The notes under the pieces were generated by a model, which searched no databases, was not told the origin of the DNA, and saw nothing but the letters and a program-made list of their open reading frames with translations. From contig NC_133154.1 of the NCBI RefSeq assembly GCF_048418815.1, forward strand, positions 388,043-452,042: a DNA stretch of 64,000 bases, read 5' to 3'. Source of the stretch: Hemitrygon akajei. Taxonomy: Eukaryota. Positions 3,800 to 38,411 of this stretch are shown one piece after another. Position numbers and translations under genes: made by a program. Every line of letters begins with the position of its first letter. Positions within the stretch are counted from its first letter, which is position 1.

Positions 3800-5100
3800 A
3801 ATACAGCCACTCGAGTGTGTGTGTATATCTTACGATCTCACAAGTCAAGTGGCAGTCCTGGACTAAACTTGAATCTAGAAAAAATGATCAGTTGTGGCAG
3901 GGCCTGAATGCTATCTCTTCTTATAAAGTAAAATCAAGTGACAACAGGGGTTCACTTCCAGATGAACTCAGTGCCTTCACGTGGAGAAACCATCAGGAAC
4001 TCCCACAGCTCTCAATCAGCCCGTCATTTCAGTCTCTGAGGCTAACGTGCAGCCTTCAGGAGGGTGAATCTGGCCCAGTCAGGAAACCTGGACAAGCACT
4101 AAAAGACCTGTACTGATAACTGGATGGATCTTTAACATCTGGCTTCGGCAGTCCTAGGTACCCACCTGCTTCAGTTATACCGGTGCCTAAGAAGAATGTG
4201 GTGACCTGCCTCAATGACGATTGTCCAGCAGCACTTAGATTCCCTGTGATGAAGTCTTTGAGAGGTTGGTGCCGAAACATATCAACTGCTGCCCGAGAAG
4301 TGACTTGGATCCACTCCTGTTTGCCTACCGGACCAACAAGTCCACAGCAGATGCCATCTGAGGAGACTGAGGTCCTTTAACATCTGCCAGACGATGCTGA
4401 GGATGTTCTACGAGTCTGTGGTGGCCAGTGCTATCATGTTTGCTGTTGTGTGCTGGGGCAGCGGGCTGAGGGTAGCAGACACCAACAGAATCAACAAACT
4501 CATTTGTAAGGCCAGTGATGTTGTGGATGTGGAACTGGACTCTCTGACGGTGGTGTCTGAAAAGAGGATGCTGTCCAAGTTGTATGCCATCTTGGACAAT
4601 GACTCCCATCCACTCCATAATATACTGGTTAGGCACAGGAGTACATTCAGCCAGAGACTCATTCCACCGAGATGTTACACTGCACGGCATACGAAGTCAT
4701 TCCTGCCTGTGGCCATCAAACTTTACAACTCCTCCCTCGGAGTGTCAGACACCCTGAGCCAATAGGCTGGTCCTGGACTTATTTCCACTTGGCATGATTA
4801 ACTTATTATTATTTATGGTTTTATATTGCTATATTTCTTCACTATTCTTGGTGCGGCTGTAATGAAACCCAATTTCCCTCGGGATCAATAAAGTATGTCT
4901 GTCTGTATCTCAGTGGCTCTTCACTCAGCCCTGGGACATCTGGCCTTTTGCACGCTGGTTGAATGGTGCAATCTTTCATTGATTCTATTATGATTATTGG
5001 ATTTATTGAGTATGCCTACAAGTAAATGAATCTCAGGGTTGTACTTGGTGACTATGTGTACTTTGATAATAAATTAACTTTGAACTTTAATAGTCTCCAA
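3800..5100 (+). mobile_element. LINE-X internal and 3' fragments with an internal deletion
   Basis: ORFs carry LPDELSAF, PVPKK..V.CLNDDCP.AL..V.MK and then the C-terminal domain at 4394..4765. The 3'UTR ends tcgggatcaataaagtatgtc. Confidence 0.55.
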
Positions 5101-6130
5101 TGCCAGCACATATTTTCTTAGATAAGAGGCCCAAAATTGCTTAATACTCCGGGTGCAGTTTGACCAATGCCCTTCAACGGAAAATCTTACAAAAAGTAGT
5201 GGATACAGCCCAGACCATCATGCCTCAGCATTGTATCCTTGCTTGTATATTCTAGTGCTCTTGAAATGAATGCTAACAACCTCACCACTGACTCAACTTG
5301 CAAGTTAAACTTTAGGGAATCCTGCACAATGTCACCAAATCCCTTTGTGCCTCAGATTTCTAGATTTTCTGCCCACTTTCATTGCTTCTACCAAAGTACA
5401 CGACCACACACTTCCCTACACAGTATTCCATCTGCCACTTCTATGCCCATTCTCCCAATCTGTCTAAGTCCTTCTGCAGACTCTCCACTTCCTCAAAACT
5501 ACCTGCCCCTCCACCTTTCTTCATATCATCTCCACACTTTGTAACAAAGCCATCAATTCCATCATCCAAATCATTGACATATAGCGTAAGAAGAATCAGT
5601 TTCCCACGCAGACCCCTGTGGAACACCACTAGTCACCAGCAGCCAAGCAGAAAAGGCTCCCTTTATTCCCACTCTTTGCCTCCTGCCAATCAGCCACTGC
5701 TTTATCCATGCTAGTACCTTTCCTGTAATATCATGGACGCTTATCTTGTTTAGCAGCCTCATGTGTGGCACCTAGTCAAAGACCTTCTGAAATCCAAATA
5801 AACAGCATCCACTGACTCTCCTTTGTCTATCCTTCCTGTTATTTTCTCAAAGAATTCCAACAGATTTGTCAAGCAAGATTTCCCTTTAAGGAAACCATGA
5901 TGACTAGGGCCTATTTTATCATGTGCCTCCAAGTATCCTGAAACCGCATTCTTAACCGTTAACTCCAACATCTACCCAACCACTGAGGTCGGGCGAATTG
6001 GCCTATAATTTCCTTTCTTCTGCCTCCCTTCCTTCTCAAGGAGTGGAGTGACATTTGCAATTTTCCAGTCCTCAGGAGTCATTCCAGAATCTAGTGATTC
6101 ATGAAAGATGTCTCCATGATCTCTTCAGCC

Positions 6131-7002
6131 TACGCGACTCCCTTGTCCACGTCCTCCCCCCATCCCTTCCCACCGATCTCCCTCCTGGCACTTATCCTTG
6201 TAAATGGAACAAGTGCTACACCTGCCCTTACACTTCCTCCCTCACCACCATTCAGGGCCCCAGACAGTCCTTCCAGGTGAGGCGACACTTCACCTGTGGG
6301 TCGGCTGGTGTGGTATACTGCATCCGGTGCTCCCGGTGTGGCCTTTTATATATGGTGAGACCCGACGCAGACTGGGAGACCGTTTCGCTGAACACCTACG
6401 CTCGGTCCGCCAGAAAAAGCAGGATCTCCCAGTGGCCACACATTTTAATTCCACGTCCCATTCCCATTCTGATATGTCTATCCATGGCCTCCTCTATTGT
6501 CAAAATGAATCCAAACTCAGGTTGGAGGAACAACACCTTATATACCGGCTGGGTAGCCTCCAACCTGATGGCATGAACATTGACTTCTCTAACTTCCGTT
6601 AATGCCCCTCCTCCCCTTCTTACCCCATCCCTGACATATTTAGTTGTTTGCCTGTTCTCCATCTCCCTCTGATGCTCTCCCCCCCTCCTTTCTTTCTCCT
6701 GAGACCTCCCGTCCCATGATTCTTTCCCTTCTCCAGCTCTGTATCACTTTCGCCAATCACCTTTCCAGCTCTCAGCTTCATCCCACCCCCTCCGGTCTTC
6801 TCCTATCATTTCACATTTCCCCCTCCCCCCACTACTTTCAAATCTCTTACTATCTTTCCTTTCGGTTAGTCCTGACGAAGGGTCTCGGCCCGAAACGTCG
6901 ACAGCGCTTCTCCCTATAGATGCTGCCTGGCCTGCTGTGTTCCACCAGCATTTTGTGTGTGTTGTTGTTTGAATTTCCAGCATCTGCAGATTTCCTCATG
7001 TT
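6131..7002 (+). mobile_element. 5'-truncated Penelope-like element 3' end: GIY-YIG endonuclease domain plus a tail with a hammerhead motif
   Basis: The ORF at 6055..6602 contains the GIY-YIG core GVVYCIRCSRCGLLYMGETRRRLGDRFAEHLRSV, a CX2C motif and EEQHLIYRLG. It is flanked by a 12-bp TSD atctcttcagcc at 6119..6130 and 7003..7014. A second copy lies at 33419..34035. Confidence 0.7.
6866..6902 (+). ncRNA. Minimal hammerhead ribozyme motif in the PLE tail
   Basis: The core is CUGACGA, then helix II GGGU-CUCG-GCCC, then GAAAC, then the palindromic GUCGAC. PLEs are known to carry such minimal type-I hammerheads that dimerise through a palindromic helix III. Confidence 0.55.
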
Positions 7003-7499
7003 ATCTCTTCAGCCACCTTTTTCAGAACCCTGGGATGTAGACAATCTGGTCCAGGTGATTTATCTGCTTTCAAACCTTTCATATTCCCAAGTACCTTCTC
7101 ATTAGTAATGCCAGCTGCACCCACTTCTATCCCCTGACACTCAAATTTCTGGCATTTTGCTAGTGATTTCAGCTGTGAAGATTGATAAACAAAATATTTA
7201 TTCAGTTCATCCAGCATTTGATGTCCCCCATTACAGTCCTGTGTAAAAGTCTCTCTCTCTCTCTCTCTCCCTCCGCGCGTGCGTGCACACACGCACGCGC
7301 ACACACTTTTGTATCGTACAGGACTTTTGTACATCTCCAGTGTCATTTTCCAACAGTCTGATATTAGTTGCCTTCTGTTAGTTTTTTAAAAGCTTCCCAA
7401 TCCTCTAACTAAGGTGCACCTGGATAAGACTTGAGTGGAGCATCAATACAGAGACTGTTTACAAGAAGGGACAGAGTTATCTCTACTTCCTGAGGAGAC

Positions 7500-8800
7500 T
7501 GTGGTCGTTTGGAGTATTTAGGCCTCTCCATAAACTTCCAAAAGGCATTTGACAAGGTCCCACACCAAAGATTATTACTTAAAGTAAAAAATCATGGGAT
7601 TGGGGATAATATTCTGGCATGGGTGGAGGATTGGCTTTCTAACAGAAAACAGAGAGTTGGGATAAATGGTTTATTCTCAGACTGGCAGTTGGTGACTAGT
7701 GGTGTTCCGCAGGGGTCGGTGTTGGGACCCCAACTCTTTACAATCTATATTAATGATTTGGAGAAAGGGACTAAGTGCAACGTATCGAAGTTTGCTGATG
7801 ACACAAAGATGGGAGGGAGTGTAATGAGTGCGGAGGACATTGAAACCCTGCAGGGGGACATAGATAGGCTGAGTGATTGGGCAGAAATTTGGCAGATGAA
7901 ATATAATACTGACAAGTGTGAGGTCTTGCACTTTGGCAGGAAAAATAATAGAGCAAGTTATTATCTAAATGGAGAGAAACTGGAAAGTGCTTCTGTGCAA
8001 AGGGATCTGGGGGTCCTGGTGCAGGAAACACAAAAAGTTAGTATGCAAGTGCAGCAGGTGGTCAAGAAGGCCAATGGAATGCTGGCTTTTATTGCTAGGG
8101 GGATGGAGTATATGAACAGGGAGGTCTTACTGCAGTTGTACTGGGTATTGGTGAGACCACACCTGGAGTACTGTGTGCAGTTCTGGTGTCCATATTTAAG
8201 AAAGAACATACTGGCTCTCGAGGCAGTGCAGAGAAGGTTCACTAGGTTAATTCCGGGGATGGGTGAGTTGATGTATGATGAGAGGTTGAGTAGATTGGGA
8301 CTCTACTCATTGGAGTTCCGAAGAATGAGAGGCGATCTTATTGAAACATATAAGATTGTGAAGGGGCTTGATCGGGTGGATGCGGGGAGAATGTTCCCAT
8401 TGATGGGTGAAACTAGGACTAGGGGGCATAATCTTAAAATAAGGGGATGCCGTTCCAGGACTGAGATGCGGAGAAATTTCTTCACTCAGAGGGTAGTGGG
8501 GCTGTGGAATTTACTGCCCCAGAGAGCTGTGGAAGCTACTACACTCAATAAATTCAAAACGGAGATAGACATTTTCCTGGATAAAAATGGCATTAGGGGA
8601 TACAGTGAGCGAGCAGTTAAGTGGACATGAGGCTAGGTTTAGATCAGCCATGTGATCTCCTGGACCAGTTTTCGATAGCCTGGATGGGTCGGAGAGGAAT
8701 TTTCCAGATTTTTTCTCCTCAATTAGCAAATCGGTTTTTTTTCCTCGGGTGATCACATGGGTTTGGGCGGGATGAATAATAAAATAAAATGGGCGGCATG
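7500..8800 (+). mobile_element. CR1-like LINE 3' half; the 373-aa open ORF2 segment at 7509..8630 covers the RT C-terminal half
   Basis: The translation runs YLDFQKAFDKVPH ... FADDTK ... CEVLHFG ... LVRPHLEYCVQFW ... GLYSLEFRRMRGDLIETYKI ... RGHNLKI ... RRNFFTQRVV.LWN.LP with no frameshift. Confidence 0.8.
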
Positions 8801-15060: not shown

Positions 15061-16119
15061 TTATTGACCCCTTCCTGTTTCTAATTTTACCCACAGAGAC
15101 TCCGTAGACAATCCCTCCATGACTTCCTGTTTTTCTGCAGCCCTGACACTATCTCTGATCAGCAGTGCCACACCCCCCACCTCTTTTGCCTCCTTCCCTG
15201 TCCTTTCTGAAACATCTGAAGCCTGGCACTCTAAGTATCACTGAGTCTGTGTAATGGTCACAACATCATAGCTTCAAGTACCTATCCAGGCTCTAAGCTC
15301 ATCCGCTCCTTGCATTAAAGTAAACACATCTCAAACTATCAGTCTGAGTGCATCAAAAGTCTTTCCCGAGGGTACAGAGTCCTAAATGAGGATGGGATGT
15401 TTGACAGTCTTTTCCCGAGGGTAGAAGGGTCCAAGATCTGTTTAAGGTGGGGGAATGAGGGATTTCAAAGGGATTTAAGCAATAGTCTATGCAACAAGCT
15501 GCCATAGGAAGTGGTTGAGGCAACTAAACTGTATCATTGAAGAAGTTCTTGAATAGGTACAGGGAGGGTGGGGCGTTAGAGGAACTCAGCAGGTCGGGCA
15601 GCATCTACGAAAAGGAGTAACCAGATGACATTCTTGAAGAGTCAGCTCAAAACGCAAATGCTTATTCATTCCCGACCTGCTGAATTCCTCCAGCATTTTG
15701 TGTCTGATGGTTTGGATTTCTAGCATCTGTAGAATTTCTCGTGTTGAGTTACCGGACGAAACTGTGATGTATCTGATAAGATAGTGCATCCGCAGAATCG
15801 TTTCGTTTCGCTCTGTCTCTACAGAGAGAACCGTCCCAACCTCTCCCGCTTCTCCCCATTACATCGCGCAGAGCTTCAGACCAGGAAACCTCTGCAGAGG
15901 ACAATCTCCTCTGCATCTTTTCCAACACAACAAATGCATTCCCATAACAGACCACTATTTGCTCCTTTCCATAGATGCTGCCTGGCCTGCAAAGTCCTCC
16001 ACATTTTGCATGCGCTGATTAATTCAGACATTTGCAGAAGCTCTTGTTTAGCACTATGATTCCCCACAACCTGCTGTGCGGAACTGATATTCTCAAGTGC
16101 GTGTGTCGGAAGGATTATT

Positions 16120-28923: not shown

Positions 28924-29844
28924 TATTTAAAGGGAACTTTTTCACTCAGGGTGAGGTGTGATTTAAAAGTTTGAATGGGTACATGGGTGGGAGGAATATC
29001 GAAGGCTATAGTCTGGTTGCAGGCAATGGTCTGAAGGGTGATGAGAGATGTACAATAAGAGGCATTGGTAGAGTGGGCAGGGCAGAAATAGCTTACAGGA
29101 GAGGGAATAATTTTGAGGTGATTGGAAGAAAGTATGGGGGGGATGTCAAGAGGGAGGTTTTGTACAGAGTGGTGGGTGTGTGGAACACCCTTCCAAGGGG
29201 TGGTGAGAGGCAGATGCATTAGGGACATGTAAGAGACTCACAGACAGCATATTGATGCAAGAAAAGGAGACAATGTTGGAGGGAAGGGTCTTGTTGATTA
29301 AAAGGTCAGCACATTTTGGAATATTATTGCATACAATTCTACGTTCTTAACTCCCAAATAAAGTAGAGGCACTGGCATTGATCAGTTAGGGCCAGGACAG
29401 GTCCTCGGAGACCTTGAGTAACACACACAAAATGCCAGAGGAATGCAGCAGGTCAGGCAGCATCTATGGAGGGGAAAAGCAGTTGCTGTTCTGGGCCAAG
29501 ACCCTTCTTCCAGCATGTGCAAAATCTTGTTTGTCCTGAGATGCTGAAGCCTTGGAACTTGAAGCCCACTCTTTACACCGCATCTTTTAGCCAAAAAGAT
29601 ATCCACCTGTACTTTCCTCATGAATCTAACTCACAATTCTTTTTGTATTATTCTGTTTGATTCAAACTTTTAACTTTTTTTTATATCTTGCACTGGATTG
29701 CAGCTGAGAAACTACAAACTTTAGGGTATCTGTTAGTGATAATTATTCTGATTGGGAACATCTTTAGCCGCCTTGTGCTCTGTGAAGCCGAACACCCTGC
29801 TTTTCCTCACTATGGTCTCACACTTCCCTCTTCTCTCATTACAG

Positions 29845-32820: not shown

Positions 32821-33418
32821 AGTGGAGTAGACTTGCTGGGCTAAATTCCACTCCTATGTCTCATGGTCTCTCTGCACACACATTCACCCCAAAATCTGTC
32901 CATTCCCTACCACCCATTGGTTCCCCCTGCAACATTGTGGCACAACTGTGCAGGCACATGGACATCAGCGAGTTAGAGCAGTAGGAAGAATTTAAAAAGA
33001 AGACAGCTACATAGAGCGGACGATATAGAAGGGGTCAGAATAGGAGAGCTTTGGCTCAACGGGGCTTCAGCGAAAACACGTCGAGGCAAGGTAAGTTACT
33101 TGTGAAGAATAGGAATGGGAAGTATGTCTGTGAAGTCGGTGTTCTGTACTGGGTGTTAGACGTGGCCGCATGTGTGCCGGGTGTGTTGAGTTGCAGCTCC
33201 TGAGGGACCGCGTTAGTGAACTGGTGATGTAGTTCGACAACCTTCGTCTGGTCAGGGTAAGTGAGGAGGTGATGGAGAGGAACTATAGGCAAGTAGTCAC
33301 ACTGGGGCCTCGGGAGACAGGTAAGTGGGTAACAGTCAGGAGAGTGAAGGGCAAGGGTCAGATATTAGAGGGTACCCCTGTGGCTGTCCCCCTTAACAAT
33401 AAGTACTCCTGTTTGAGT

Positions 33419-34035
33419 CCCAAACAGTCCTTCCAGGTGAGGCAACACTTCACTTGTCTGTTGGGGTAATCTATTGCATCCAGTGCTCCCGGTGCGGCCT
33501 CCTCTACATCGGCGAGACACGACGCAGACTGGGGGAATCACTTTGTCGAGCACCTACGCTCCGTCCGCCACAACAGACAGGATCTCCCGGTTGCCACTCA
33601 CTTCAACTCTCTTTCACATTCCCATTCGGATATGTCCATACATGGCCTCCTCTACTGCCATGATGAGGCCAAACTTCGGCTGGAGGAACAACATCTCATC
33701 TACCGTCTGGTAGTCTCCAGCCCCTTGGTATGAACATCGAGTTCTCCAACTTCCGGTAATTCCCTCCCTCTCCCTTCCCCCATCCCACCTCTACTCTGTC
33801 TCCTAGCTGCCTATCACCTCTCATGACTCTGCCTTCTTCTACTACCCATAGTGCTTTCCCCATAGATTCCTTCACCTCTCCTGCCTAACCCCTCCCTGCT
33901 TCCCCTCCCCCCACCTTCTTCATAGGGCTCCTGCCCCCTCCTTTAGTCCTGACGAAAGGTCTCGACCCGAACCGTTGACTGCTTCTTTCAACGGATGCTG
34001 CCTGACCTGCTGAGTTCATCCAGCTTTTTTGTACG
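33419..34035 (+). mobile_element. 5'-truncated Penelope-like element 3' end, second copy, inserted in CR1 ORF1
   Basis: GIY-YIG motifs IYCIQCSRCGLLYIGETRRRLGE, PVATHFNS and EEQHLIYRL. The same tail as 6131..7002. The 12-bp TSD tcctgtttgagt lies at 33407..33418 and 34036..34047. Confidence 0.7.
33944..33979 (+). ncRNA. Hammerhead motif, second PLE copy, probably inactive
   Basis: CUGACGA, helix II AGGUCUCGACC, then GAAC instead of GAAA, then GUUGAC. The catalytic GAAA is mutated. Confidence 0.4.
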
Positions 34036-36759
34036 TCCTGTTTGAGTACTGTTGGGGAGAGGGGTGGTTGACCTACCAGGGGGAAACAACAGTGGCTGCA
34101 CTTCTGGCACAGAGTCTGGCCCTGTGGCTCAGAAGGCTAGGGAAAGGAACAGGATGGCAGGTGTGATAGGGGACTCTATAGTTAGAGGATCAGACAGGCG
34201 ATTCTGTGGACACAGGAAAAAAACTGGGATGGTAGTTTGCCTCCCAGGTGCCAGGGTCCGAGACGTTTCTGATCGTGTCCGCGATATCCTGAAATGGGAA
34301 GAACAGCCAGATGTAGTGGTACGTATTGGTACCAACGACATGGGTAGGAAAAGGGAGGAGGTACTGAAAGCAGACTACAGGGAGTTAGGAAGAAGCTGAG
34401 AAGTAGGACCTCAAAGGTAGTAATCTCGGGATTACTGCCTGTGCCACATGACATTGAGTATATGAATAGAGTGAGGTGGAGGATAAATGCGTGGCTGTGG
34501 GATTGGAGCAGGGGGCAGAGATTCAGATTTCTGGATCATTGGGACTTCCCTTGGGGCAGGCATAACCTGTACAAAAAGGACGGGTTGCACTTGAATCCAA
34601 GGGGGACCAATATTCTGGCAGGGAGGTTTGCTATGGCTATTGGGGAGAGTTTAAGCTAGAATTGCTGGGGGGTGGGAACCGAACTGAAGAGACAGAGGAA
34701 GGCTCACAGATAGAGAAAGCTTGTAGACAGTGTGAGAGGGAGGATAGGCAGGTGATAGAGAAGGGACATGCTCAATCCAATGGTTTGAGATGTGTCTATT
34801 TTAATGCAAGGAGGATCATGAACAAAGTGAATGAACTTAGAGCATGGATCAGTACTTGAAGCTATGATGTTGTGGCCATTACAGAGACTTGGATGGCTCA
34901 AGGACAGGAATGGTTACTTCAAGTGCCAGGCTTTAGATGTTTCAGAAAGGACAAGGAGGGAAGCAAAAGAGGTGGGGGCATGGTACTGCTGATCAGATAG
35001 TGTCATGGCTGCAGAAAAGGAGGAAGCTGTCTACTGAGCCTCTGTGGGTGGAAGTTAGAAACAGGAAGGAGTCAATAACTCTACTGGGTGCTTTTTTTAA
35101 ATATATCGTTACAGGGACTTCGCGGAGCACATAGGGTGACAGATTCCAGAATGGTGCATAATAATAGGGTTGTCATGATGGGAAATTTTAATTTCCTCAA
35201 TATTAATTGGCATCTCCCTAGAGCAAGGAGTTTAGATGGGCTGGAGTTTGTTAGGTGTATTCAGGAAGGTATGTAGGTAAGCCTACAAGAGGAGAGGCTG
35301 TACTTGATCTGGTATTGGGAAATGAATCTGGTTAGGGGTCAGGTCTCTCAGTAGGAGAGCATTTTGGAGATAGTGATCACAATTCTATCTCATTTACCAT
35401 AGCATCGGAGAGGGATAGGGACAGACAAGTTAGGAAAGCATTTGATTGGAGAAAGGGGAAATATGAAGCTCTCAGGCAGAAACTTGGAAGCAGTAGATGT
35501 AGTGTATATGGATTTCAGCAAGGCATTTGATAAGGTACCCCATGGAAGGCTTATTGAGAAAGTAAGGAAGCATGGGATCCAAAGGAGCCTTGCTTTGTGG
35601 ATCCAGAATTGGTTTGCACACAGAAGGCAAAGAATGCTTGCAGACAGGTCATATTCTGCATGGAGGTCGGTGACCAGTGGTGTGCCTCAGGGATCTGTTC
35701 TAGGACCCTTTCTCGTCATAATTTTAATAAATGACCTGGATAAGGAAGTGGAGGTATGGGTTAGTAAGTTTGCTGATGACACAAAGGTTGGGGGGTGTTG
35801 TGGATAGTGTGGAGGGCTGTCAGAGGTTACAGCGGGACATTGATAGGATGCAAAACTGGGCTGAGAAGTGACAGATGGAGTTCAACCCAAATAAGTGTGA
35901 GGTGGTTTATTTTGGTAGGTCAAATATAATGGCAGAATATGGTATTAATAATAAGACTCTTAGTAGTGTGGAGGATCAGAGGGATCTTGGGATCCAAGTC
36001 CATAGGACACTCAAAGCTGCTGCGCATTGGCCTTCATCAACCTTGGGATTGAGTTCAAGAGCTGAGAGGTAACGTTGCTGCTATATAGGACCCTGGTCAG
36101 ACCCCACTTGGAGTACTGTGCTCAGTTCTGGTCACCTCACTACAGGAAGGAGGAAACTAGAAAGGGTGCAGAGGAGATTTACAGGATGTTGCCTGGATTG
36201 GGGAGCATTACCTATGAGAATAGGTTGAGTGAACTTGGCCTTTTCTCCTTGGAGCGACAGAGGATGAGAGGTGACCTGATAGTGGTGTATAAGATGATGA
36301 GAGGTATTGATCATGTGGATAGGCAGAGGCTTTTTCCCAGGGCTGAAATGGCTAACATGAGAGGGCACAGTCTTAAAGTGCAGAAGTAGGTACAGAGGAG
36401 ATGTCAGGGGTAAGTTTTTAAAAAAATGCAGAGTGGTGAGTGCGTGTAATGGGCTGCCGGCGATGGTGGTCTTTAAGATCTTTTAAGAGACTCCTGGATA
36501 GGTACATGGAACTTAGGAAAATAGAGGGCTATGGATAACCCCAGGTAATTTCTCAGGTAAGGACATGTTTGGCACAGCATAGTGGGCCGAAGGGCCTGTG
36601 TTGTGCTGTAGGTTTTCTATGTTTTGATGTTTCTATGTAACCACCTAGAGGAGTCTACCACAGCCCCAACCCCATGTACTTGTGATGCGGACTGTCCCAC
36701 CTGCTTCTCACACTTTGTGTGAGGTCTGTGAGAACCCACCCCCAGCCCTTAGTCTGTAC

Positions 36760-38013: not shown

Positions 38014-38411
38014 CTGGGTGTATTTTATATAGATAGATATAAATATACACACACACACACCGAGAGGAGGGGGTAGAGAGGGAGAGAGAGAGAGGTACAT
38101 TGTGTGGTCAGATGACATCTCTCTGACATCTAGTTCCCTTAGCGTACAGGGATTCCCCTCTTTCTAACCCATGGGCCACAAGGCAAGATAAGGAACAGGG
38201 ATATTGCTGAATTCTCCCTCTCCCTCCAACCACTTTGCCCAAAGGTCTTTGCCCGAAACATTGAATGCTTTTATCCCTCTGTAGATACTGCCTGACCTGT
38301 TGAGTCTGTGGTGCTCTATATTTGCAGCATCGAAATAATATTGTATCCATCTCCCCAGTTCCCTCCCTCTCCTCCCCACTCCACCTCAGTGATCACTATG
38401 CTGTGATGGAC

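What the first reader, a model, noticed from the sequence alone, without database searches (positions are those of the whole stretch)
6131..7002. Penelope-like element 3' ends with hammerhead ribozyme cores, 12-bp TSDs and a natural active/inactive pair
Two 5'-truncated copies (6131..7002 and 33419..34035) encode the PLE GIY-YIG endonuclease. Both carry a downstream tail containing a minimal hammerhead. At 6872..6902 the core is CUGACGA, then GGGU-CUCG-GCCC, then GAAAC, then GUCGAC. The palindromic GUCGAC fits the dimeric PLE hammerhead model. The second copy has GAAC in place of the catalytic GAAA, so it is predicted to be dead. Both insertions are flanked by exact 12-bp target duplications, atctcttcagcc and tcctgtttgagt, and both landed in CR1 elements. 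Solo tail fragments without the ribozyme recur at 15590..15720 as an inverted pair, and at 15955..15990, 29440..29475 and 38225..38300.
Basis: partly seen in the sequence, partly recalled or inferred. Interest (0 to 1): 0.65.

Follow-up and report, generated by a model that had tools for sequence, protein, structure and literature searches.

The report
Truncated Penelope retrotransposons with hammerhead motif
Two broken-off 3' ends of a Penelope-like jumping gene, each carrying the small hammerhead-ribozyme motif this class of element is already known to carry, sit inside older LINE repeats of what looks like a stingray genome; it is a correctly spotted but ordinary repeat.

Summary
Copy A (6131..7002) and copy B (33419..34035) are 5'-truncated, frameshifted 3' ends of a Penelope-like element (PLE). 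Each is flanked by an exact 12-bp target-site duplication. Three uninterrupted paralogous LINE copies in the window prove the insertion of A.

The encoded GIY-YIG nuclease has the CCHH and CX4CX2C motifs of the Neptune PLE clade. The closest relatives are copies in the stingray Hypanus sabinus (95% identity).

The 34-nt element at 6869..6902 meets every published feature of the PLE "minimal hammerhead". My descriptor found it once in the window and never in 200 shuffles. No Rfam hammerhead model matches, and thermodynamic folding prefers a plain hairpin. Cleavage is therefore inferred by homology, not shown.

A sibling copy keeps both wild-type bases, so B is ordinary post-insertion decay, not a designed "inactive partner". 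The dimer palindrome is ACGU, not GUCGAC. Most of the "ribozyme-less" tail fragments carry decayed ribozyme remnants.

The 3' ends fall into two classes 30-42 bp apart. This is the known PLE "tail" signature.

Verdict: a new member of a well-described kind, of low interest.

The parts
6119..6130 (+). Left copy of the 12-bp target-site duplication of copy A (ATCTCTTCAGCC)
   Evidence: Read directly. Recovered by the TSD scan at offset 0. Present once in three uninterrupted paralogous LINE copies.
6131..7002 (+). Copy A: a 5'-truncated PLE 3' end of 872 bp, starting in the linker between reverse transcriptase and nuclease
   Evidence: 95.4% identical over 849 bp to Hypanus sabinus L004 6889-7732, and 90% identical to L001 9475-8606. 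Homologous to copy B.
6131..6602 (+). Pseudogenised C-terminal ORF: the linker with CX4CX2C (CKWNKCYTC), then the GIY-YIG nuclease with CCHH; stop TAA at 6600-6602; one frameshift near 6354
   Evidence: Translations. Pfam GIY-YIG 24.9 bits against a cut-off of 22.6. tblastn shows the frame change at 6354. 83 homologs at E<=1e-5.
6603..6868 (+). Pyrimidine-rich 3'UTR (the pLTR-equivalent part); it evolves fast
   Evidence: No significant similarity between A 6632-6865 and the corresponding part of B.
6869..6902 (+). Minimal type-I hammerhead motif. Helix I 5' strand GUC 6869-71. C3-A9 CUGACGA 6872-78. Unpaired A 6879. Helix II GGGU/GCCC 6880-83 / 6888-91 with loop CUCG 6884-87. G12A13A14 6892-94. 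A15.1C15.2G16.2U16.1 6895-98. C17 6899. The predicted cleavage is between 6899 and 6900. Helix I 3' strand GAC 6900-02.
   Evidence: Descriptor scan: one hit in the window and 0 in 200 shuffles. The identical 34-mer occurs in H. sabinus L001 8707-8680. The features match PMC4209133. No Rfam hit.
6903..6973 (+). Conserved tail core (ATAGATGCTGCCTGRCCTGCTG...CCAGCATTTTGTGTG...). The short class of 3' ends maps to about 6960-6973.
   Evidence: This is the best-conserved block in all 10-11 aligned copies. Short ends are seen in copy B, 29420 (minus strand), L001 8606, L004 about 7726 and L005 7553.
6974..7002 (+). Optional tail extension of about 30-42 bp (relative to the short ends at about 6960-6973), ending ...CCTCATGTT (the long class of 3' end). 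It contains the palindrome ATCTGCAGAT.
   Evidence: The same terminus occurs at window 15745, L001 16095, L001 12575, L005 3446 and L001 9965. It matches the PLE 'tail' described in PMC8557442 and PMC11167929.
7003..7014 (+). Right copy of the TSD of copy A
5441..7346 (-). Host CR1-like LINE (reverse-transcriptase region, decayed), interrupted by copy A
   Evidence: Minus-strand ORF fragments flank the insert. The reconstructed empty site matches at least six other LINE copies in the window across the junction. The CR1 assignment rests on motif knowledge (KSPGPD..HPRVLKE, HGF.KG.SCLTNL), not on a database test.
33407..33418 (+). Left copy of the 12-bp TSD of copy B (TCCTGTTTGAGT)
33419..34035 (+). 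Copy B: a 5'-truncated PLE 3' end of 617 bp, from a second subfamily and with the short-type 3' end
   Evidence: 78% identical to A over the ORF. 84.5% identical to H. sabinus L001 12094-12545. Several frameshifts.
33946..33979 (+). Decayed hammerhead motif of copy B: G10.1A (33957), 11.4 G>A (33965; U-A replaces U.G), A15.1C (33972), C17U (33976)
   Evidence: Read directly. Alignments. Four non-standard pairs in the double-hammerhead model.
34036..34047 (+). Right copy of the TSD of copy B
33051..34659 (+). Host CR1-like LINE ORF1 region (esterase domain downstream of the insert), interrupted by copy B
   Evidence: Pfam Lipase_GDSL_2 35.8 bits against a cut-off of 32.9 on the flanking ORFs. 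That esterase ORF1 is typical of CR1-like LINEs is established knowledge.
29420..29512 (-). Older copy truncated at about the 5' edge of the hammerhead. The ribozyme is decayed (CTGGAAGAAGGGTCTTGGCCCAGAACAGCAAC). Short-type 3' end.
38241..38305 (+). Old decayed copy with a hammerhead remnant (CCCAAAGGTCTTTGCCCGAAACATTGAA) and the tail core
15579..15745 (.). Complex tail fragment. An inverted piece at 15579-15607 (minus strand) is followed by a sense piece at about 15625-15745 that has a deleted, decayed hammerhead remnant and the long-type 3' end (...CTCGTGTT).
   Evidence: Inverted repeat 15579-15598 / 15671-15690, 95% complementary.
15945..16050 (+). Old tail fragment with the long-type end; a possible heavily decayed hammerhead lies upstream

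Best explanation
Copies A and B are two independent, dead-on-arrival retrotransposition products of a Neptune-type Penelope-like element. They belong to two subfamilies about 78% identical to each other, in an elasmobranch genome (most likely a stingray).

Proposed mechanism; the steps are inferred from what is known of PLEs:
1. The element's GIY-YIG nuclease nicked the two DNA strands 11-12 bp apart.
2. The reverse transcriptase primed on the nick and began copying inside the 3' tail of the element RNA, at one of two sites 30-42 nt apart. A used the distal site and B the proximal site.
3. Synthesis stopped early. That left only the nuclease-coding end, the 3'UTR and the tail, flanked by a 12-bp target duplication.

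The 3'UTR carries the minimal type-I hammerhead that PLE pseudo-LTRs typically carry. It has no loop 3. Helix III can form only when the ACGU of two copies pair, either two RNAs or two pLTRs in one tandem transcript. Cleavage would then follow C17 (between 6899 and 6900). In the source element this motif probably acts as a weak, protein-assisted self-cleaving site, or as a structured part of the template RNA. In these truncated genomic copies it has no role.

Copy A is young. It has one frameshift, keeps all five CpGs of the motif, and is 95% identical to a relative, so its core is intact. Copy B is older, and its core has been broken by ordinary mutation.

Shown here: the homology, the TSDs, the empty sites, the protein motifs, the fit to the hammerhead motif, the two classes of 3' end, and the decay pattern.
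Inferred: the TPRT steps, the dimer fold and any cleavage.
For: TSDs and empty sites:
- Exact 12-bp TSDs.
- Three paralogous empty sites for A.
- Relatives have 11-bp TSDs: L004 5317-5327 with a 2.4-kb copy whose homology to L005 starts 5 bp later, and L001 16250-16240 with a 150-bp copy.

Protein:
- GIY-YIG above the Pfam cut-off.
- The translation VVYCIRCSRCGLLYIGETRRRLGDRFAEHL...THF shows CCHH with the cysteines between GIY and YIG.
- The translation CKWNKCYTC shows the CX2-5CxxC linker. Both are defining motifs listed in PMC8557442.
- In H. sabinus loci the same nuclease is contiguous with a reverse transcriptase carrying YIDD and the DKG-type motif KPADKGG. More than 1000 RT homologs carry RVT_1 / HTH_animal.

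Hammerhead:
- One descriptor hit against 0 in 200 shuffles, and an identical 34-mer in L001.
- The motif plus tail is a conserved island (81% identity) in a 3'UTR that otherwise does not align between the subfamilies.

Decay reading of copy B:
- The sibling copy L001 12458 keeps G10.1 and A15.1.
- Only 3 of 11 copies keep the whole core, and the changes cluster at CpGs.

Two classes of 3' end:
- Seen in the alignments.
- They match the two reverse-transcription start sites and the optional 30-40 bp tail of PLEs (PMC11167929; PMC8557442).

Inverted 5'-truncated neighbours:
- Seen at L001 about 9887 and L005 about 4710. This is the arrangement described for PLEs.
Against: - No Rfam hammerhead hit, even at E<=10.
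- ViennaRNA prefers an alternative hairpin in which G5-G8 pair with C15.2-C17. That fold scores -10.4 kcal/mol against -6.3 for the hammerhead-like monomer.
- The double-hammerhead scores -11.5 against -29.1 for an extended duplex.
- The tail folds no better than shuffled sequences (z = +0.24).
- Helix I is only 3 bp.
- There is no compensatory covariation. The only pair-preserving change is U.G to U-A at 10.4/11.4.
- No reverse-transcriptase sequence and no pLTR pair exist in the window itself.
- No genomic copy starts at the predicted cleavage site.
- The Neptune assignment rests on motifs, not on a phylogeny.
Confidence: 0.87

Rival explanations
1. The conserved 34-nt element is mainly a rod-like hairpin that the PLE protein recognises, made of helix I, a GACG/CGUC stem and helix II. 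On this reading the resemblance to a hammerhead is vestigial, and the RNA is not cleaved in this family.
For: - The predicted minimum-energy fold of the monomer and of the whole tail is exactly this hairpin.
- The double-hammerhead fold is about 18 kcal/mol worse than the best dimer.
- In L001 16230 the changes G8>A and C15.2>U would keep that stem paired.
- Published work found hammerhead mutants do not affect insertion in vitro, and found no RNA-seq ends at the cut site (PMC11167929).
- No genomic copy begins at the cleavage site.
Against: - Every invariant hammerhead core position is present, plus the non-obvious hallmarks (the extra nucleotide after A9, G10.1-C11.1, and ACGU). A plain hairpin would not need these.
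- The alternative stem follows almost automatically from the core sequence when N7=C and 15.2/16.2=C/G.
- The G8A / C15.2U pair in L001 is two CpG transitions in a dead copy, so it is not informative.
- The Anolis PLE hammerhead cleaves with the C3/G8 rescue logic when protein is added.
Confidence: 0.15
2. Copy B's GAAC core is a heritable feature of its subfamily, that is, a naturally inactive or differently regulated ribozyme lineage. On this reading A and B form a meaningful natural active/inactive pair.
For: - A and B belong to different subfamilies (78% identity).
- B and its sibling share 11.4 A and U17.
Against: - The sibling of B in H. sabinus (L001 12458-12575) has G at 10.1 and A at 15.1. 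The two disabling changes are therefore private to copy B.
- B is riddled with frameshifts.
- Only two members of this subfamily were available.
Confidence: 0.05
3. The short hammerhead-plus-tail fragments (29.4 kb, 38.2 kb, 15.6-16.0 kb) are copies of non-autonomous PLE derivatives, either retrozyme-like or SINE-like elements that borrow the PLE tail. On this reading they are not extreme 5' truncations of the autonomous element.
For: - Several short copies begin within 0-12 nt upstream of the hammerhead: window 29512, L001 16240 and L004 about 10630.
- Non-LTR retrozymes derived from PLE pLTRs are reported in vertebrates, including one chondrichthyan (bioRxiv 10.64898/2026.07.22.740005).
Against: - The copies are dispersed and single, never in head-to-tail arrays.
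- L001 16240-16095 has its own 11-bp TSD, like a simple truncated insertion.
- 5' truncation is pervasive in PLEs.
- No shared non-PLE 5' module was seen.
Confidence: 0.12
4. The hammerhead-like string is a chance match in a pyrimidine-rich UTR.
For: - No Rfam hit.
- The motif is short.
Against: - 0 hits in 200 dinucleotide shuffles of 64 kb on both strands.
- The same 34-mer, or recognisable decayed versions of it, occurs at the same position of the element in 11 copies from two subfamilies and two data sources.
- It sits where PLEs are known to carry the motif.
Confidence: 0.01

Closest known systems
Neptune-clade Penelope-like elements of fishes (EN+ PLEs; Arkhipova 2006; Craig et al. 2021, PMC8557442)
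   Same: - C-terminal GIY-YIG nuclease with CCHH, with the cysteines between GIY and YIG.
- An extra CX2-5CxxC linker motif (here CKWNKCYTC).
- Heavy 5' truncation.
- Target duplications.
- Inverted 5'-truncated neighbours in related loci.
- An optional tail of about 30-40 bp.
- A hammerhead in the 3'UTR / pLTR.
   Different: - Only truncated ends are present in the window, so there is no reverse transcriptase and no pLTR pair.
- Clade placement is by motif only. Nematis shares the linker motif, and no tree was built.
- The TSDs look narrowly 11-12 bp in the four cases measured, whereas the literature calls them variable.
- This stingray family itself was not found described in the papers searched.
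PLE minimal hammerhead ribozymes (min-HHR; Cervera & De la Pena 2014, PMC4209133; Lunse, Weinberg & Breaker 2017, cited in PMC6765202)
   Same: - Type-I layout.
- CUGANGA and GAAA boxes.
- An unpaired nucleotide between A9 and G10.1.
- G10.1-C11.1.
- No loop 3, with a palindromic ACGU that can form helix III only in a dimer.
- A short helix I.
- Location in the repeat downstream of the ORF.
   Different: - Helix II is 4 bp, whereas 6-8 bp was reported for several invertebrate families.
- Helix I is only 3 bp.
- Cleavage was not tested here.
Poseidon PAc of Anolis carolinensis (Frangieh et al. 2024, PMC11167929)
   Same: - Two adjacent internal reverse-transcription start sites explain the two classes of genomic 3' end.
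- The hammerhead lies 60-100 nt upstream of those ends.
- That ribozyme is weak alone and protein-assisted.
   Different: - It belongs to a different clade (no CX2-5CxxC linker).
- In PAc the hammerhead overlaps the ORF start, and the start sites lie in an AC-rich stem-loop inside the ORF.
- Here the end regions are GU-rich (GTGTTTGAA-like), and their position relative to the ORF start is unknown.
Non-LTR retrozymes of animals (Cervera & De la Pena 2020, PMC7229834; Li et al. 2026 preprint)
   Same: Hammerhead-bearing, PLE-related, non-coding short units found in non-mammalian vertebrates.
   Different: - Retrozymes are tandem arrays with canonical type-I hammerheads that give circular RNAs.
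- Here the copies are single and dispersed, flanked by TSDs, and continuous with the PLE ORF.

Membership tests
Penelope-like elements (EN+) | [quoted passage not shown] | tested here: met
   Pfam PF01541, 24.9 bits against a cut-off of 22.6, on the frameshift-corrected translation of 6131-6602. The ORF ends 25 codons after the conserved N (GMNIDF).
Penelope-like elements (EN+) | CCHH zinc-finger motif with the two cysteines between GIY and YIG (PMC8557442) | tested here: met
   Read directly from the translation: VVY-CIRCSRC-GLLYIG ... AEH ... THF.
Penelope-like elements (EN+) | Telomerase-related PLE reverse transcriptase in the same ORF, upstream of the nuclease | tested here: inconclusive
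   Absent from the window, because both copies are truncated. In H. sabinus relatives (L004, L005, 87-95% identical) the nuclease is contiguous with a reverse transcriptase carrying YIDD, KPADKGG and LSKGLSFVP. RT homologs carry RVT_1 / HTH_animal. No phylogeny against TERT or LINE reverse transcriptases was made.
Penelope-like elements (EN+) | Pseudo-LTRs from partial tandem insertion, and/or an inverted 5'-truncated copy at the 5' end | tested here: inconclusive
   Not present for A or B, which are solo truncated copies. Inverted neighbours are seen at L001 9883-9965 / 9887-8606 and at L005 4710. A small inverted pair lies at window 15579-15690.
Penelope-like elements (EN+) | Optional 30-40 bp 'tail' extension, i.e. 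two classes of 3' end | tested here: met
   About 5 short and about 6 long 3' ends, 30-42 bp apart, among 11-13 copies.
Penelope-like elements (EN+) | Target-site duplication from staggered nicks | tested here: met
   12, 12, 11 and 11 bp. Empty-site paralogs exist for A.
Neptune clade of PLEs | Additional CX2-5CxxC zinc-finger-like motif in the RT-EN linker (absent in Penelope/Poseidon) | tested here: met
   CKWNKCYTC (C-x4-C-x2-C) at 6200-6226. Also present in homologs such as CNRRKCYTC. Nematis shares this motif, so the clade is not uniquely fixed.
Neptune clade of PLEs | Placement within Neptune in a reverse-transcriptase phylogeny | not tested
   No reference Neptune, Nematis or Poseidon reverse-transcriptase sequences were available in the tools.
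PLE minimal hammerhead (type I) | Conserved core: C3U4G5A6N7G8A9 and G12A13A14, an A15.1-U16.1 pair, and H17 | tested here: met
   Copy A at 6872-6899 has all of them. Copy B fails at 15.1 (C).
PLE minimal hammerhead (type I) | Unpaired nucleotide between A9 and 10.1, and a G10.1-C11.1 pair | tested here: met
   A6879 is unpaired, and G6880 pairs with C6891. The hallmark is listed. Copy B has A10.1.
PLE minimal hammerhead (type I) | No loop 3; palindromic 15.2-16.2, so that helix III forms between two copies | tested here: met
   ACGU at 6895-6898. In the double-hammerhead model all pairs are standard for A, and four pairs are broken for B.
PLE minimal hammerhead (type I) | Helices supported by covariation | tested here: inconclusive
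   11 copies were aligned. The only pair-preserving change is U.G to U-A at 10.4/11.4. The other changes are decay in dead copies.
PLE minimal hammerhead (type I) | Site-specific self-cleavage (as a dimer and/or protein-assisted) | not testable with these tools
   This needs in vitro transcription or 2',3'-cP end mapping. Thermodynamic prediction does not favour the active fold.
Rfam hammerhead families (Hammerhead_1, _3, _II, HH9, HH10) | Covariance-model match | tested here: not met
   No hit at the gathering threshold over the whole window, or at E<=10 on 6700-7050 and 33800-34100. As far as I know, those models expect a closed helix III.
Non-LTR retrozymes | Head-to-tail tandem units, each with a hammerhead | tested here: not met
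   The hammerhead/tail copies are single and kilobases apart: 6.9, 15.6, 16.0, 29.5, 34.0 and 38.3 kb.

The most novel reading that the evidence does not exclude
In this stingray PLE family, reverse transcription may start at either of two copies of a short GU-rich repeat in the tail (GTGTT(G)TTTGAA at about 6957-6973 and ...GTGTT(TGAA) at about 6998-7002). At the proximal site, the nicked target may be positioned by base-pairing with the template.

The evidence is that the TSD of copy B (TCCTGTTTGAGT) matches the tail sequence that would have followed its 3' end at 9 of 12 positions. The TSD of L004 (TTTCAACATTT) matches at 5 of its first 6.

That would differ from the homology-independent internal initiation reported for the Anolis element.
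Probability: 0.1. Interest if true: 0.3.

Novelty: new member of a known kind. Interest (0 to 1): 0.15.

Why it matters
It matters little beyond annotation.
- It documents a young Neptune-type PLE subfamily in a stingray-like genome. Its minimal hammerhead is intact in copy A, with all five CpGs preserved.
- The 11 copies form a natural series of decayed versions of the motif.
- It illustrates why covariance-model scans miss PLE hammerheads.
- A genome-wide follow-up could supply elasmobranch data on two open PLE questions: what the hammerhead is for, and how the two reverse-transcription start sites are chosen.
- It also flags gene models in H. sabinus that have absorbed fragments of this element as exons.

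Tried and rejected
1. Rfam cmscan at the gathering threshold on the whole window, and at E<=10 on both tails, gave no hammerhead. The only hit was a chance NEAT1_2 match at E=5. I rejected this as decisive because the motif class lacks loop 3.
2. Thermodynamic folding of the monomer, the homodimer and the whole tail gave no support for the hammerhead fold and no stability signal (z = +0.24).
3. Empty-site test for copy B. The only paralog spanning the junction (L001 15423-15827, 69% identity) was too diverged to align at the junction.
4. I looked for PLE reverse-transcriptase sequence elsewhere in the window by tblastn and found none.
5. I looked for a full-length element with an upstream pLTR, to place the hammerhead and tail relative to the ORF start. 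L005 4711-7553 is nearly full length, but an inverted copy abuts it at 4710, and no other 5' region was found in the loci held. The idea that the ATG at 6920 starts the ORF (as in Anolis PAc) is not supported. Subfamilies A and B differ by a 1-nt indel just downstream.
6. The marine-metagenome PLE ends (L002, L003) showed no minimal hammerhead by descriptor in the 300-400 nt after the stop codon.
7. Pfam on the decayed LINE fragments flanking A gave no hit. The CR1 call for that flank rests on paralogs and on remembered motifs.
8. The Lunse et al. 2017 paper could not be opened.
9. I checked whether any copy starts at the predicted cleavage site, and none does.
Full report
**Observation**

- Copy A (6131..7002) is bracketed by ATCTCTTCAGCC at 6119-6130 and 7003-7014.
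- Copy B (33419..34035) is bracketed by TCCTGTTTGAGT at 33407-33418 and 34036-34047.
- A blind scan for the longest direct repeat across each 3' end returns exactly these 12-mers at offset 0.
- I rebuilt the empty site of A from its flanks and searched the window with it. Six other LINE copies span the junction. Three of them align cleanly as ...CCATGATCTCTTCAGCCACCTCTTTCAGAACCC... with a single copy of the 12-mer.
- So A is an insertion with a genuine 12-bp target-site duplication.
- For B, the only junction-spanning paralog was too diverged to align. There the case rests on the 12/12 match at the exact limits of homology to A.

**What the copies encode**

- A and B are 78% identical over the coding part and 81% over an 89-bp block containing the hammerhead and tail. 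The 3'UTR between those blocks does not align.
- A has one frameshift, near 6354. B has several.
- The corrected translation of A is ...TYPCKWNKCYTCPYTSSLTTIQGPRQSFQVRRHFTCGSAGVVYCIRCSRCGLLYIGETRRRLGDRFAEHLRSVRQKKQDLPVATHFNSTSHSHSDMSIHGLLYCQNESKLRLEEQHLIYRLGSLQPDGMNIDFSNFR*.
- It passes Pfam GIY-YIG (24.9 bits against 22.6).
- It shows by eye the two motifs that Craig et al. list as diagnostic (PMC8557442). One is CCHH with the cysteines between GIY and YIG. The other is the CX2-5CxxC linker, which is present in Neptune and Nematis and absent in Penelope/Poseidon.

**Relatives**

- A database search found 83 relatives. These are mostly short gene models, plus three NCBI models from the stingrays Hypanus sabinus and Hemitrygon akajei that have absorbed the element as exons.
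- Longer models and three H. sabinus loci show the same nuclease contiguous with a reverse transcriptase. That enzyme carries YIDD, KPADKGG and LSKGLSFVP, and has RVT_1 / HTH_animal Pfam hits.
- Copy A is 95.4% identical to L004 6889-7732. Copy B is 84.5% identical to L001 12094-12545.
- The window therefore most likely comes from a dasyatid ray, and it holds members of two subfamilies of one PLE family.

**The hammerhead**

Rfam finds nothing, at the gathering threshold or at E<=10. The published PLE "min-HHR" (PMC4209133) is defined by:
- the CUGANGA and GAAA boxes;
- an unpaired nucleotide between A9 and 10.1;
- a G10.1-C11.1 pair;
- no loop 3;
- a palindromic 15.2-16.2, so that helix III forms only between two copies.

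Copy A reads GUC|CUGACGA|A|GGGU-CUCG-GCCC|GAA|ACGU|C^GAC at 6869-6902 and meets every point.

I wrote a descriptor with these rules. It finds this one site in the window, none in 200 dinucleotide-preserving shuffles, and the identical 34-mer in H. sabinus L001.

The palindrome that matters is ACGU (15.1-16.1).

**Caveats on activity**

- ViennaRNA prefers a rod-like hairpin in which G5-G8 pair with C15.2-C17. It scores -10.4 kcal/mol against -6.3 for the hammerhead-like monomer.
- The double-hammerhead scores -11.5 against -29.1 for an extended duplex.
- The whole tail folds no better than shuffled sequence.
- This agrees with published data. PLE hammerheads cleave poorly in vitro even as dimers.
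- The Anolis one cleaves only when the element's protein is present. It is dispensable for insertion in vitro (PMC11167929).
- So membership of the motif class is well supported, but catalysis by this sequence is inferred.

**The "active/inactive pair"**

- The changes at 10.1 and 15.1 should both be disabling. That follows from established hammerhead mutagenesis knowledge, and four pairs break in the dimer model.
- The only other member of B's subfamily that I could fetch (L001 12458..) has G10.1 and A15.1. These two changes are therefore private to a decayed pseudocopy.
- Among 11 aligned copies, only three keep the whole core. Most changes are CpG>TpG or CpG>CpA at the motif's five CpGs.
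- The pair is ordinary neutral decay of dead copies. It is not a natural experiment with any special standing, although the series could be used as a set of test variants.

**The other fragments**

- The fragments at 29420-29512 (minus strand), 38241-38305 and 15625-15745 align through the ribozyme region. They show decayed versions of it, for example CTGGAAGAAGGGTCTTGGCCCAGAACAGCAAC. They are older copies, not ribozyme-less tails.
- The inverted pair is at 15579-15598 / 15671-15690.

- The 3' ends fall into two classes.
- The long class ends ...ATCTGCAGATTTCCTC(A/G)TGTT. Members are A, window 15745, L001 16095, L001 12575, L001 9965 and L005 3446.
- The short class ends 30-42 bp upstream, within GTGTGTTGTTGTTTGAA. 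Members are B, window 29420, L001 8606, L004 about 7726 and L005 7553.
- This is the optional 30-40 bp "tail" regarded as a PLE signature. It has been explained by two adjacent internal reverse-transcription start sites.
- TSDs in two relatives are 11 bp. This family therefore seems to use an 11-12 bp stagger.
- Related loci also show the inverted 5'-truncated neighbour typical of PLEs.

**Hosts**

- B sits in the ORF1 region of a LINE whose downstream ORF hits Lipase_GDSL_2. That esterase ORF1 is characteristic of CR1-like LINEs (established knowledge).
- A sits in a LINE reverse-transcriptase region with many paralogs in the window.
- Because such LINEs fill the window, two hits in them need no targeting.

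**Comparison and verdict**

- Everything tested fits an EN+ PLE of Neptune type carrying the standard PLE minimal hammerhead.
- PLEs and their hammerheads are documented across non-mammalian vertebrates. One surveyed chondrichthyan has PLE-related retrozymes, and the preprint reports Neptune and Poseidon PLEs in five vertebrate classes.
- The finding is a correct identification of a known kind of element, with some over-interpretation of detail. It is a new family member at most, and of low interest.
- The least ordinary reading left open is microhomology-guided choice between two repeated start motifs in the tail. It rests on two junctions, and I rate it at about 10%.

Noticed in passing
window 34036-34047 against the tail consensus; L004 7720-7737: At two short-type 3' ends, the start of the TSD resembles the tail sequence that would have followed. 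Copy B's TCCTGTTTGAGT matches TGTTGTTTGAAT at 9 of 12 positions. L004's TTTCAACATTT matches TTTGAA at 5 of its first 6. Three other short-end junctions show no such similarity. This may be chance or microhomology-assisted priming.
   Followed up: partly
window 6957-6973 and 6996-7002 (also L001 16145-16095): Both classes of 3' end lie in similar GU-rich strings (GTGTTGTTTGAA and CGTGTTTGAA). These are separated by a segment containing the 10-nt palindrome ATCTGCAGAT (6983-6992). They could mark the two reverse-transcription start sites of this family.
   Followed up: partly
window 6872-6899: The hammerhead core can refold into a simple hairpin (U4-G8 with C15.2-G1.1). That fold is predicted to be about 4 kcal/mol more stable than the hammerhead-like monomer. 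It follows almost automatically from N7=C with 15.2/16.2=C/G.
   Followed up: partly
window 6274-6282 (CAG|GTGAGG inside the nuclease ORF); proteins P0083, P0075, P0081: NCBI gene models of Hypanus sabinus and Hemitrygon akajei contain fragments of this PLE nuclease as exons (SRP14 isoform X2, ATP synthase subunit C3-like isoform X1, VKORC1L1 isoform X2). In P0083 the element-derived exon ends exactly at ...SFQ, the donor-like CAG|GTGAGG. These are exonisation events or annotation artefacts.
   Followed up: partly
window 15579-15745; L001 9883-9965 / 9887-8606; L005 about 4710: Inverted tail pieces abut the 5' end of sense copies. In the window and in L001 the inverted piece starts at nearly the same tail position (...(A/C)GTAGATGCTGCC), about 16 nt downstream of the predicted cleavage site. 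The sense piece in the window has lost that same stretch.
   Followed up: no
window 7509-8630 (plus strand), and 22.7, 25.7, 31.5, 50.3-51.0, 57.5 kb: The window is packed with CR1-like LINE copies. One has an intact 373-aa C-terminal reverse-transcriptase ORF (Pfam RVT_1 66.7 bits) ending in the NFFTQRVV..WN.LP motif. At least six paralogs of the region hit by copy A are present.
   Followed up: partly
L004 1340-3791 (Hypanus sabinus): A roughly 2.4-kb tandem array, with a unit of about 69 bp, stays open in three reading frames on both strands. The frames are about 800 aa long and made of repeats such as VVSLGCIYVLWVTVVRRN.
   Followed up: no
L002 724-1410 and L003 89-775 (Tara / marine metagenome contigs): Two marine-metagenome contigs carry a 228-aa PLE nuclease end (P0025, 49% identical to copy A's). 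My descriptor found no minimal hammerhead in the 300-400 nt after the stop codon.
   Followed up: partly
window 38050-38105: A (CA)n and (GA)n microsatellite run lies about 140 bp upstream of the decayed copy at 38241.
   Followed up: no
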